Assembly (NCBI RefSeq): GCF_054482595.1
Contig: NZ_CM137008.1
DNA: 64,000 bases
Direction: 5' to 3' (one strand)
The position numbers are program-made. Of this stretch, positions 21,001-24,000 are shown one piece after another. Numbering within the stretch: position 1 is the stretch's first letter; the number at the start of each line of letters is the position of its first letter.

Positions 21001-24000
21001 TTAATGGTATCTGCTATGCCTTTGTTTATTAAAGCACAGTCTTCAAATCAGGGTCAACCAAACCACAGTATATTATATCCAACTATTGGATGTCGGTAAG
21101 CGACTAAGGCTAGTTGAGGTAACACATAAATAATACAATACCTTAGGGTATTGAGTTTCATCCTGTCCCTCCTTCTACGAACGTATCCACGCAGCGACTA
21201 GACTGGCCCCCTGAATCTCCAGACAACCAATATCACTTATTTAAGTGATAGTCTTAATACTAGTTTTTAGACTAGTCATTGGAGAGCAGATGATTGATGT
21301 CTTAGGACCGGAGAAACGCAGACGGCGTACTACACAGGAAAAGATCGCTATTGTTCAGCAGAGTTTTGAACCGGGAATGACAGTCTCCCTTGTTGCCCGG
21401 CAACACGGTGTGGCAGCCAGCCAGTTATTTCTCTGGCGCAAGCAATACCAGGAGGGAAGTCTTACTGCTGTGGCCGCAGGAGAACAGGTCGTTCCTGCCT
21501 CTGAACTTGCTGCCGCCATGAAGCAGATTAAAGAACTCCAGCGCCTGCTCGGCAAAAAAACGATGGAAAATGAACTCCTTAAAGAAGCCGTTGAATACGG
21601 GCGTGCAAAAAAGTGGATAGCGCACGCGCCCTTATTGCCCGGGGATGGGGAGTAAGCTTAGTCAGCCGTTGTCTCCGGGTGTCGCGTGCGCAGTTGCACG
21701 TCATTCTCAGACGAACCGATGACTGGAAAGATGGTCGCCGCAGCCGTCACTCAGATGATACGGATGTGCTTCTCCGTATACACCATGTTATCGGAGAGCT
21801 GCCCACATATGGTTATCGTCGGGTATGGGCGCTGCTTCGCAGACAGGCCGAACTTGATGGTATGCCTGCGATCAATGCCAAACGTATTTACCGGATCATG
21901 CGCCAGAATGCGCTGTTGCTTGAGCGAAAACCCGCTGTACCGCCATCGAAACGGGCACATACCGGCAGAGTGGCTGTGAAAGAAAGTAATCAGCGATGGT
22001 GCTCTGACGGGTTCGAGTTCCGCTGTGATAACGGAGAAAAACTGCGAGTCACGTTCGCGCTGGACTGCTGTGACCGTGAGGCACTGCACTGGGCGGTCAC
22101 TACGGGCGGCTTCAACAGTGAAACAGTACAGGACGTCATGCTGGGAGCGGTGGAACGCCGTTTCGGCAACGAGCTTCCGGCGTCTCCAGTAGAGTGGCTG
22201 ACGGATAATGGTTCATGCTACCGGGCTAATGAAACACGGCAGTTTGCCCGGATGTTGGGGCTTGAACCGAAGAACACGGCGGTGCGGAGTCCGGAGAGTA
22301 ACGGCATAGCAGAGAGCTTCGTGAAAACGATAAAGCGTGACTACATCAGTGTCATGCCCAAACCAGACGGGTTAACGGCAGCAAAGAACCTTGCAGAGGC
22401 ATTCGAGCATTATAACGAATGGCATCCGCATAGTGCACTGGGTTATCGCTCGCCACGGGAATATCTACGGCAGCAAGCCAGTAATGGGTTAAGTGATAAC
22501 AGGTGTCTGGAAATATAGGGGCAAATCCAGCGACTTCTTGAGCTTCGCCTGAAAAATTTGAAACCATGCGCTTGATGAGAATTGCATCTAGGTTACATTT
22601 GTGGGAACAGATCGTTGCTAGGGTAGCTATAAAATAAAAATTATAATTTATTCATGCAGTTAGTGTAAATGAATGCCGCTGAAACCTGAGCATCTTGCTT
22701 GGGGTGTTCATATACATAGTCAACGAAGGTTTTATAGAGCGCAATCATCTGGGGTGTGACTTCGGACTTGCCATTCATATTATCGAGACGCTGATAATAG
22801 TCTGCTTTGGTCATTCCTCCGTTTCGGCCTTTGGTTACGTTTGCGGTGAATTGTGCTATACCCATACACATTTGATCTTTATGGTTATTCGTTTTATCCG
22901 GGTGAAGAGCACCTTCCAACACTTTATCACCGCTGATGGCATGTTGCGCCCACGCTGAATTGTTGGCGATAAACTTTTTGGAGCCGGTGGCAATACCGTA
23001 TTCGATGCGAATGCCATTATCGTGATAGCTACCGTCAGCATCTTTAGTCGCTAACTTTAGAGATATGCGGCAACCGGGGAGCGTTTTGTGTTCTTGCACC
23101 GAAGCAATAACGGTGTCTGTATCGCAATCAGCAAAGCTGTATGTGGGATTAACATAGGTATTCGTTTTGAGTAGTAACCCGGTTAAGCCGTTTTTATAGC
23201 CTTTTGCCGGTAGGGTTTTAAAGGCGTTACGGTCGCCATCCTTAATCGCTTCCCGAAACTGATCCATCCCAATGCGGATTGCCAGTTGATCGATGCTCTC
23301 GGCTGCATATGATGCAGATGATGTAGCGATTAATATGATGCTCAGCAAAAACTTGGCTGGAAAAACGGGTTTAATAATTCGTGTTTGTGACATGTTGTTA
23401 TCCTTCAGAATCCACCCCTGCGGTGATTTTAATCGCATGATAACGCTTTGATTCAAAATGTCACTATTGGAGCGTGGCTCTTTAGTGGACATCTAATCAA
23501 ATTCAGGAGGATGAAAAAGACCCTTCGATTTTTATTTGGACAACGTGTTAAGGCTCTACGTATAGCCGCCGGAATGAGCCAGGAAGCGTTTGCTGATCGG
23601 TGTGGATTTGCGCGTAGCTATATGAGCCGCATTGAACGTGGTTGCTCTAACGCGTCTCTTGATGCGATTGAGGTATTGGCTGAAGCTTTAAGTGTTGAGC
23701 CTTGGCAATTGTTAGCGTCCGATTCTTCCGAAGATAGCGCCCCGGAATTGTTGGTTCCATACGCGGCCGATGGCTCGTGCTTTCATCCCGGACTAGCGAG
23801 CACGCGCGATGGTTCGTTTGGTGTAGGTGATAAAGCCGCTCAGAAGCGTTTTGGCTCGTTTTTAGAAGCATTAGAGTATCTACGTAACATGAAGACAGCA
23901 AAATGGCGCAGACCCAATTCTAGCGGCAACTGGGGTATCGTATCAGCGGTTCGTTGGGACAAGCTGAGAAAGTAGCTCAGGTGTAAGTTTCAGATTTTAA

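What the first reader, a model, noticed from the sequence alone, without database searches (positions are those of the whole stretch)
22641..23393. Secreted 250-aa protein of unknown family between IS2 and the XRE pair
A clear signal peptide followed by a polar domain with no family I can name. It sits in horizontally acquired context, so it could be a periplasmic effector, immunity protein or inhibitor.
Basis: inference. Interest (0 to 1): 0.3.

Follow-up and report, generated by a model that had tools for sequence, protein, structure and literature searches.

The report
Periplasmic protein of SpLE5-type island
The gene is real and encodes an exported two-part protein of no known family; it sits in a fixed slot beside the regulator of a small mobile island that carries anti-phage genes, but its function is still unknown.

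Summary
Window 22641-23393 (minus strand) is a 250-aa gene with a ribosome-binding site and a Sec-type signal peptide (predicted cut ASYA|AES). It is under strong purifying selection (dN/dS 0.07-0.13). Pfam, NCBIfam, PADLOC, PDB sequence and fold searches assign no family.

New findings:
- It fills a fixed slot, divergent from an XRE regulator and near a small serine recombinase. This trio recurs across Enterobacterales, while integrase type and anti-phage cargo vary.
- The protein has two modules. The N module (loosely NTF2-like) is 79-93% conserved. The C module is a four-helix bundle flanked by two conserved cysteines and occurs in two alleles only 15-24% identical.
- Each module also occurs alone in the same slot. 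About 535 E. coli genomes carry the regulator without this gene, and the one example examined (ATCC 25922) has an unrelated membrane protein there.
- IS2 is a later insertion. The "XRE pair" is one XRE plus a restriction-like DUF6998 protein.

Best guess, at low confidence: a periplasmic binder with exclusion or immunity function and swappable specificity. Interest is modest.

The parts
22641..23393 (-). [not shown]
   Evidence: ORF and translation; identical RefSeq CDS; dN/dS 0.07-0.13; 60 homologs, all 'hypothetical'.
23304..23393 (-). Signal peptide, residues 1-30; predicted SPase I cut after ASYA
   Evidence: Sequence features. The ASYA|AES junction is conserved while the rest drifts. Relaxed dN/dS of 0.4-0.8. 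AF2 pLDDT is below 50 for residues 1-29. Cleavage itself is not shown.
22896..23303 (-). N module, residues 31-166: three helices, a three-stranded long curved sheet, then two helices; Cys90 and Cys108
22644..22895 (-). C module, residues 167-250: four-helix bundle flanked by Cys176 and Cys246; allele class A
   Evidence: AF2 helices 167-249. Class A and class B alleles are 15-24% identical. Stand-alone about 105-aa exported relatives match phrog_2315 at 1e-7. Both Cys and an R-D pair are invariant.
23394..23510 (.). 117-bp divergent control region shared with the XRE gene. It holds a sigma-70-like promoter for the exported-protein gene (-35 GTGACA at 23464-23459, -10 TATCAT ending at 23437) and a small palindrome GAGCgtgGCTC at 23470-23480
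   Evidence: Promoter scan. A conserved block is present in eight loci, including ones with a different slot gene. Function as an operator or promoter is inferred.
23511..23975 (+). XRE-family regulator (154 aa), divergent partner. The N-terminal HTH resembles R-M controller proteins; the C-terminal 90 aa are of unknown family
   Evidence: Pfam HTH_31 2.7e-13. PADLOC Control_protein 3.4e-18. PDB C.AhdI 3.9e-10. 78-95% identical and adjacent in almost all loci. Present in 785 E. coli genomes.
18472..19041 (+). Small serine recombinase (resolvase/invertase type), third member of the conserved trio
   Evidence: Pfam Resolvase 3.7e-36. 82-91% identical in related loci. Linked to the N module even at 29% identity (L022) and to C-only genes (L025).
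14345..16288 (+). Tyrosine integrase with an N-terminal DUF6538 domain (647 aa)
   Evidence: Pfam DUF6538 1.9e-9 and Phage_integrase 4.6e-8. Two integrase types (37-39% or 74-92% identical) accompany the same trio.
14182..14256 (+). tRNA-Gly(CCC) (14182-14255) and attL core TTCCCTTCGCCCGCTCCAA (14238-14256)
   Evidence: ARAGORN. The 19-bp repeat that bounds the 9.56-kb element in strain XH990. Only the left copy remains in the window.
17036..18052 (-). 338-aa hypothetical protein, a recurrent element gene
   Evidence: No family. Homologs in L018 and L027 (76-81%) and weakly in L010.
19128..20903 (-). AIPR/AbiU-like protein: anti-phage cargo between the recombinase and the exported-protein gene, in a low-GC stretch
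   Evidence: Pfam AIPR 4e-34. PADLOC AbiU 1.7e-29. GC 0.32-0.35. This position holds other genes, or none, in other elements.
24145..25023 (+). DUF6998 protein resembling type II methyl-directed restriction enzymes: cargo downstream of the regulator
   Evidence: PADLOC mREase_II 5.3e-70. Pfam DUF6998 2e-9. phrog_24787.
21200..22527 (+). IS2, a secondary insertion 113 bp downstream of the stop codon; not part of the element
   Evidence: Absent from the otherwise identical XH990. IS2 TnpB 3.7e-214.
25077..25586 (-). IS1 fragment at the point where the element's right end (attR) and about 10 kb of chromosome have been deleted
   Evidence: Window-XH990 comparison. IS1 transposase. attR is absent.

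Best explanation
The gene encodes a soluble periplasmic protein whose conserved cysteine pairs probably form disulfides. It is made by a SpLE5-type integrative element from a promoter in the short region it shares with the element's XRE regulator.

The protein joins a conserved N module to a swappable C-terminal four-helix module. Most probably it is a non-enzymatic binder that acts in the cell envelope for the element. Candidate roles are exclusion of incoming phage or related elements, or immunity against a periplasm-acting attack. The C module would set specificity.

Shown:
- The gene is real and under constraint.
- It has export signals.
- It has a two-module architecture with allelic C modules.
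- It is fixed next to the XRE regulator and near the recombinase.
- The ortholog is transcribed.

Inferred:
- Periplasmic location.
- Control by the XRE protein.
- Binding rather than catalysis.
- The exclusion or immunity role.
For: 1. Export: the signal-peptide anatomy is kept in all relatives. Distant N-module relatives carry a lipobox or a TM anchor instead, so the module is always extracytoplasmic. Paired cysteines occur in each module.

2. Linkage to the element backbone: the XRE-slot-recombinase trio is found in E. coli (glyU and leuX), Yersinia, Citrobacter and Enterobacter. Plesiomonas keeps the gene, recombinase and integrase but no XRE was detected. The trio also appears in metagenome contigs that carry N-only, C-only or very divergent versions. 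Cargo genes differ between elements (BREX, type I R-M, Zorya, AbiU-like, mREase-like).

3. Specificity-like variation: the N module is 79-93% identical, but the C module falls into two classes 15-24% identical, independent of integrase type. Within class A both modules are under purifying selection. Variation is therefore by cassette exchange.

4. Alternative slot occupants, all envelope-exposed: N+C, N alone, one or two C-only genes, N plus a Zn-ribbon-TM protein, or an unrelated 2-TM Cys-rich protein as seen in ATCC 25922.

5. Residues invariant across distant N-module relatives are Pro, Gly, Cys and one Asp. This points to a scaffold or binder rather than an enzyme.

6. A promoter-like site for the gene lies within the block conserved with the XRE gene.

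8. Analogy from established knowledge, not tested here: temperate phages often place exported superinfection-exclusion genes next to the repressor gene (ltp of TP-J34, sie2009).
Against: - No sequence or fold similarity to any known exclusion, immunity or inhibitor protein.
- No phenotype data exist for this gene.
- About 535 E. coli genomes have the regulator without this gene, so it is not indispensable to the element and could simply be cargo.
- No candidate target is encoded nearby.
- The XRE protein could instead control the downstream cargo, since its HTH resembles R-M controller proteins.
Confidence: 0.3

Rival explanations
1. It is a host-fitness 'moron': ordinary cargo that happens to occupy a variable slot. 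It would serve stationary-phase or gut survival of the host, for example envelope stress or colonisation, with no role in exclusion or in the element's own biology.
Against: Both modules stay linked to the XRE/recombinase/DUF6538-integrase backbone in relatives as distant as 29% identity and in unrelated cargo contexts. This is not expected of a passenger gene. The calf phenotype concerns the neighbouring gene, not this one.
Confidence: 0.2
2. It helps the element move. These 'integrase-only' islands have no known transfer genes. A periplasmic protein could couple the element to a helper's conjugative apparatus, or to vesicle or phage release.
Against: The fold match is at noise level. The element has no relaxase, oriT or packaging genes. 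The gene is never on plasmids or phages. Only one of 2.9 million viral contigs carries it, and there the whole island is present, which suggests the viral call comes from adjacent DNA. Alternative slot occupants are structurally unrelated.
Confidence: 0.08
3. It is a small exported polymorphic toxin or bacteriocin: a conserved N-terminal delivery module with a variable C-terminal toxic module.
For: The conserved-N / variable-C pattern, and the existence of stand-alone exported C modules.
Against: No cognate immunity gene follows. In Yersinia the recombinase gene starts 10 bp after the stop codon. No neighbour co-varies with the C-module class. There is no toxin-domain hit. N-only forms are common. 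A Sec signal alone does not take a protein out of E. coli.
Confidence: 0.05
4. It is a member of a common housekeeping periplasmic family that sequence searches missed.
For: None beyond the generic observation that many periplasmic proteins are small and disulfide-bonded.
Confidence: 0.01

Closest known systems
[not shown]
   Same: Ortholog: 83-86% identical, same length apart from a 7-aa duplication in the linker. It has the same divergent XRE partner (ECs5252, 90% identical), the same recombinase (ECs5249, 87%) and a DUF6538-type integrase next to a tRNA gene. The element is about 10 kb.
   Different: SpLE5 sits at leuX with an integrase only 37% identical, and it carries different cargo (ECs5250 rather than the AIPR protein; no DUF6998). 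ECs5251 is itself uncharacterised, so this match names the gene but not its function.
Exported superinfection-exclusion proteins encoded beside the repressor of temperate phages (Ltp of TP-J34, Sie2009, Cor, Llp, T4 Sp); recalled from the literature, not tested here
   Same: Small envelope-located proteins. They are encoded by an integrated element next to its regulator gene, are expressed in the integrated state and vary between related elements.
   Different: No sequence or fold similarity was detected. Those proteins are lipoproteins or membrane proteins, whereas this one is predicted to be soluble. The element here is not a phage.
phrog_2315 (phage/prophage protein family of unknown function, 109 aa)
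   Same: Stand-alone relatives of the C module match it at E 1e-7 to 8e-16. They share the signal peptide, the two flanking cysteines and the R-D motif.
   Different: The query itself matches only at E 0.037. The family has no known function. The one INPHARED record found (MT836560, 'unverified') has the same XRE-slot-recombinase module and no recognised phage genes among the eight ORFs scanned.
NTF2-like / cystatin-like alpha+beta fold
'Integrase-only' defence islands of E. coli (Hochhauser et al. 2023, PMC10121019)
   Same: A tRNA-linked island with integrase and recombinase genes, anti-phage cargo and no known transfer genes.
   Different: In the passages I retrieved, that paper does not describe a conserved XRE / exported-protein / recombinase module, and no paper in the library contains 'DUF6538'.

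Membership tests
Sec/SPase I-exported soluble periplasmic proteins | N-terminal positively charged region, hydrophobic core of 7-15 residues, small-x-small cleavage site, no lipobox Cys, no further TM segment | tested here: met
   3 K/R and no D/E before the core; core FLLSIILIA; S-Y-A|A; no Cys before residue 90; maximum 19-aa hydropathy 0.3 in the mature part. SignalP was not available, and cleavage and localisation are not shown experimentally.
SpLE5-type integrative element (O157 Sakai SpLE5) | tRNA-adjacent tyrosine integrase with DUF6538, a small serine recombinase, and an XRE regulator divergent from an envelope-protein slot | tested here: met
   All four are present in the window in the same order as SpLE5.
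SpLE5-type integrative element (O157 Sakai SpLE5) | Bounded by direct repeats of the tRNA 3' end (intact attL and attR) | tested here: not met
   The 19-bp repeat bounds the element in XH990. In the window only attL remains; attR was lost in an IS1-associated deletion. The window copy is a stranded member.
NTF2-like superfamily (N module) | Significant structural superposition on natural members, or a profile hit to a clan family | tested here: inconclusive
   [not shown]
phrog_2315 (C module) | Significant profile match | tested here: inconclusive
   Query E 0.037. Stand-alone relatives that the family profile recovers at 1e-10 to 1e-4 match phrog_2315 at 1e-7 to 8e-16. The link is transitive only.
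Known periplasmic inhibitor and immunity families represented in Pfam/NCBIfam (e.g. Ivy, MliC/PliC, LprI/DUF1311, T6SS immunity families) | Profile match to the family | tested here: not met
   No family at E <= 1 for the query or for ten stand-alone relatives.
Known anti-phage defence proteins (PADLOC-DB) | Profile match to a defence-system component | tested here: not met
   No hit at E <= 1, whereas its neighbours hit AbiU, Control_protein and mREase_II.
Heavy-metal-associated (HMA) domain | Ferredoxin-like fold with a GMxCxxC metal site, and broad similarity to HMA domains | tested here: not met
   The C-module profile hits only B. subtilis CopA over about 43 residues (E 1.6e-5). The CxxC positions are not conserved, AF2 predicts an all-helical module, and there is no Pfam HMA hit.
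Polymorphic toxin with cognate immunity | Variable C-terminal toxin domain followed by a co-varying immunity gene | tested here: not met
   A variable C module is present, but no gene follows in Yersinia or Plesiomonas, and no neighbour co-varies with the class.
Invertase-controlled shufflon (alternative C-terminal segments) | Inverted crossover sites flanking alternative C-terminal coding segments next to the invertase gene | tested here: not met
   Only short imperfect inverted repeats, 14-19 nt at 79-93% complementarity, were found. There is no silent alternative C segment in the element.
Superinfection or entry exclusion proteins | Blocks entry of phage or element DNA when expressed | not testable with these tools
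   This needs plating, conjugation or transduction assays. Only the positional analogy is available.

The most novel reading that the evidence does not exclude
The XRE / envelope-slot / serine-recombinase trio, together with a DUF6538 integrase, would define an unrecognised family of small tRNA-integrating elements. SpLE5 is its only named member. These elements ferry anti-phage systems among Enterobacterales. Their exported protein would be a new kind of envelope-level exclusion or immunity determinant. It would be built from two modules with no solved structural relative, and specificity would change by swapping the C-terminal four-helix cassette.
Probability: 0.2. Interest if true: 0.6.

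Novelty: new variant of a known kind. Interest (0 to 1): 0.33.

Why it matters
Small 'integrase-only' islands carry much of the anti-phage arsenal of E. coli, and nobody knows how they are maintained, moved or kept from piling up. This work identifies a conserved three-gene module in one such family. One member of that module is an exported, cassette-swapping protein with no solved structural relative. That gives a concrete gene to delete or swap when asking what these islands do besides carrying cargo.

The ortholog sits in SpLE5 of O157:H7, an island that distinguishes lineage I from lineage II strains. For the gene taken alone, the result is modest: a well-supported but still uncharacterised periplasmic protein.

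Tried and rejected
- Profile searches (Pfam, NCBIfam, PHROGs, PADLOC) gave nothing usable for the query.
- PDB sequence searches with the single protein and with N- and C-module profiles gave nothing for N. For C there was a motif-level hit to B. subtilis CopA HMA domains. I rejected it because no CxxC is conserved, the model is helical and no other HMA domain is hit.
- Plasmid and phage collections gave no match by DNA or protein. One 'Bacteriophage sp.' scaffold, found with a C-only relative, turned out to carry the same island module.
- The idea that the adjacent serine recombinase is an invertase switching C-terminal segments found no suitable inverted repeats or silent segments.
- The idea that the ATCC 25922-type slot protein is a diverged N module failed: hhalign probability 0.04%.
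- A word-indexed search with the C-module profile was unproductive, returning only 7 hits.

Full report
THE OBSERVATION

A 250-codon ORF lies on the minus strand at 22641-23393. It is preceded by AAGGA 6-10 nt upstream of the ATG. RefSeq annotates the same CDS as 'hypothetical protein' WP_021557169.1 in the identical region of E. coli XH990.

The first 30 residues have the anatomy of a Sec/SPase I signal peptide:
- three basic and no acidic residues;
- a hydrophobic core FLLSIILIA;
- the site S-Y-A|A-E-S;
- no lipobox.

The mature 220 residues (24.3 kDa, pI 8.3) have no hydrophobic segment and carry four cysteines, at 90, 108, 176 and 246.

The gene is under strong purifying selection. Against orthologs, dN/dS is 0.07-0.13 for both mature modules and 0.4-0.8 for the signal-peptide codons. 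That contrast is what one expects of a real exported protein. The exact sequence occurs on 534 contigs.

A longer 283-codon reading from 23492 is possible. It is unlikely because the only good promoter-like site for this strand (GTGACA-16-TATCAT, 23464-23437) lies downstream of that ATG.

NO KNOWN FAMILY

- Pfam, NCBIfam and PADLOC return nothing at E <= 1. PHROGs gives only a marginal hit, phrog_2315 at E 0.037.
- The PDB has no sequence relative, either for the single protein or for profiles of each module.
- An exhaustive HMM search of 1.84 billion representative proteins found only 37 relatives. The word-indexed search found 60, all unnamed, from Escherichia, Klebsiella, Enterobacter, Cronobacter, Pluralibacter, Pantoea, Cedecea, Yersinia and Plesiomonas; Citrobacter came from the genome scan.
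- AlphaFold2 gives confident models: 83.5 for the full length with a disordered signal peptide, and 95.3 for the N module alone.
- The AFDB library was unavailable.

WHERE IT SITS

The window is E. coli chromosome. tRNA-Gly(CCC) at 14182-14255 is followed by a set of element genes:
- a 647-aa tyrosine integrase with an N-terminal DUF6538 domain;
- a 338-aa hypothetical protein;
- a small serine recombinase;
- an AIPR/AbiU-like protein;
- the exported-protein gene;
- a divergent XRE regulator;
- a DUF6998 protein that matches methyl-directed type II restriction enzymes.

In strain XH990 this 9.56-kb block is bounded by a 19-bp direct repeat of the tRNA 3' end.

The window differs from XH990 in two ways:
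- IS2 has inserted at about 21200-22527, 113 bp beyond the stop codon.
- An IS1-associated deletion at 25076/25077 has removed attR and about 10 kb, after which IS26 and an AAC(3)-II gene follow.

So IS2 is incidental. The 'XRE pair' is one XRE plus a nuclease-like cargo gene. This copy of the element can no longer excise by attL x attR.

A CONSERVED TRIO

The gene was never found on plasmids or phages. It occurs once per genome in 253 of 5426 complete E. coli genomes, always on the chromosome.

The same arrangement recurs in almost every locus with enough flank. This covers E. coli glyU and leuX, Yersinia, Citrobacter, Enterobacter and metagenome contigs. Plesiomonas keeps the gene, recombinase and integrase but no XRE match, and L015 keeps only the gene, DUF6998 and an integrase remnant.
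- The XRE regulator is 78-95% identical.
- The exported-protein gene lies divergent to it.
- A small serine recombinase (82-91% identical) follows, either directly or after one cargo gene.
- A DUF6538 integrase sits next to the chromosomal junction.

The integrase comes in two types, 37-39% or 74-92% identical to the window's. Cargo differs from element to element: BREX, type I R-M plus ParE/RelB, Zorya nearby, AbiU-like, DUF4062, mREase-like.

Hochhauser et al. describe such 'integrase-only' defence islands as having an unknown mode of mobilisation (PMC10121019). No paper in the library mentions DUF6538.

TWO MODULES, SHUFFLED

The alignment splits the mature protein at about residue 166.

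The N module (31-166) is 79-93% identical in all full-length homologs. The C module (167-250) falls into two classes. Class A is 65-95% identical to the query and class B only 15-24%. The class does not track integrase type.

Each module also exists alone:
- N-only exported proteins of 150-175 aa. More distant N modules are anchored by a lipobox or a TM helix.
- C-only exported proteins of about 105 aa. They have two invariant flanking cysteines and an R-D pair, and they match phrog_2315 at 1e-7 to 8e-16.

These stand-alone versions sit in the same genomic place:
- N-only between the XRE gene and the recombinase (L011, L012).
- A 29%-identical lipoprotein version next to a recombinase and an excisionase-like gene (L022).
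- C-only genes next to DUF6538 integrases, with an XRE gene alongside (L009, L010).
- Two tandem C-type genes between the XRE gene and the recombinase in an 'unverified Bacteriophage sp.' scaffold (L025).

The XRE gene is in 785 E. coli genomes, about three times as many as carry this gene. In the one such genome examined, ATCC 25922, the slot holds an unrelated 164-aa protein with two TM helices and a Cys-rich periplasmic domain. That protein is weakly similar to the Zn-ribbon-TM protein that follows the N-only gene in L011.

The slot beside the regulator is therefore reserved for envelope-exposed proteins of changing identity.

REGULATION AND EXPRESSION

The 117-bp divergent region is conserved even where the slot gene differs. 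It contains the promoter-like site for the exported-protein gene and a small palindrome, GAGCgtgGCTC, at 23470-23480.

The regulator's HTH is most like R-M controller proteins. Control of the slot gene by it is inferred.

INTERPRETATION

Four points are secure:
- The protein is a real, exported, two-module protein.
- It is tied to the backbone of SpLE5-type elements.
- Its C module varies by cassette exchange.
- It has no recognisable relatives of known function.

Several features point to a non-catalytic periplasmic binder that serves the element at the envelope:
- Residues invariant across distant relatives are only Pro, Gly, Cys and one Asp.
- The cysteines are paired in each module.
- The modules are shuffled.
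- The alternative slot occupants are envelope-exposed.
- The gene sits next to the regulator.

The most economical role is exclusion or immunity with allele-specific recognition. This is analogous to the exported superinfection-exclusion genes that temperate phages keep beside their repressor (an analogy from the literature, not tested here). I put this at about 0.3.

Rivals:
- A host-fitness 'moron' (0.2).
- A role in hitch-hiking transfer (0.08).
- A small polymorphic toxin (0.05, because no immunity gene is present).
- A missed housekeeping family (0.01).

I looked for and did not find an invertase-driven shufflon or a true HMA relationship.

VERDICT

- Its interpretation is partly supported and sharpened.
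- The mildly interesting result is the conserved XRE / envelope-slot / recombinase module of a family of defence-carrying islands, not the protein taken alone.
- Interest is 0.33.

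Noticed in passing
window 21200-22527: A complete IS2 is inserted between the AIPR gene and the exported-protein gene. 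It is absent from the otherwise 100%-identical strain XH990, so the insertion is recent.
   Followed up: yes
window 25076/25077 and rightwards (25092-27322): An IS1 fragment abuts the element 53 bp after the DUF6998 gene. Compared with XH990, attR and about 10 kb (a GH15 gene, a GhoT-like toxin, the start of the ETT2 type III secretion cluster) are deleted. IS26 and an AAC(3)-II aminoglycoside acetyltransferase follow, so a resistance region is embedded in the chromosome.
   Followed up: partly
window 19128-20903 (-): A 591-aa AIPR-family protein (PADLOC AbiU 1.7e-29, weak MzaE) lies in a 32-35% GC stretch. It is probably abortive-infection cargo in the variable position between the recombinase and the slot gene.
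   Followed up: partly
window 24145-25023 (+): The DUF6998 protein matches PADLOC 'type II methyl-directed restriction enzyme' at 5e-70 over residues 14-168 and matches phrog_24787 full length. Its C-terminal 120 aa are unassigned. It also occurs with the same XRE gene on E. coli plasmids (L024).
   Followed up: partly
window 23511-23975 (+): The XRE regulator has a 90-aa C-terminal domain of no known family. The gene is in 785 of 5426 E. coli genomes, including 70 plasmid places, far more than the exported-protein gene.
   Followed up: partly
L026 15578-16351 (O157 Sakai ECs5251): The O157 ortholog is 257 aa because of a 7-residue tandem duplication (NNNKDQM) in the linker between the two modules.
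   Followed up: no
L023 8330-8824 (E. coli ATCC 25922): In the one regulator-only genome examined (of about 535), the slot beside the XRE gene holds an unrelated 164-aa 2-TM protein with a Cys-rich periplasmic domain (WP_000145203.1). It is weakly similar (E 7e-6) to a Zn-ribbon-TM protein that follows the N-only gene in L011.
   Followed up: partly
window 17036-18052 (-): A 338-aa hypothetical protein with no family recurs in related elements: 76-81% identical in L018 and L027, and 24% in L010 next to a C-only gene. It may be another backbone gene.
   Followed up: no
L014 (CACSKA010000005.1): This assembly is labelled Chryseobacterium sp. 18061, yet it carries the whole island at 86-95% protein identity to the enterobacterial version. 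The assembly is probably mislabelled or contaminated rather than showing transfer to Bacteroidota.
   Followed up: no
L025 (MT836560.1) and L027 (IMGVR_UViG_2905855570_000003): Two records filed as viral carry the XRE-slot-recombinase module. L025 shows no recognised phage genes among the eight ORFs scanned. In L027 the whole island is present and only the left 5.5 kb is left to explain the viral call. These elements can be mistaken for phage.
   Followed up: partly
window 23470-23480: A small palindrome GAGCgtgGCTC lies in the conserved block about 30 bp upstream of the XRE start codon. It is a possible operator. ATCC 25922 has a second copy of the neighbouring AAATGTCAC-like motif.
   Followed up: no
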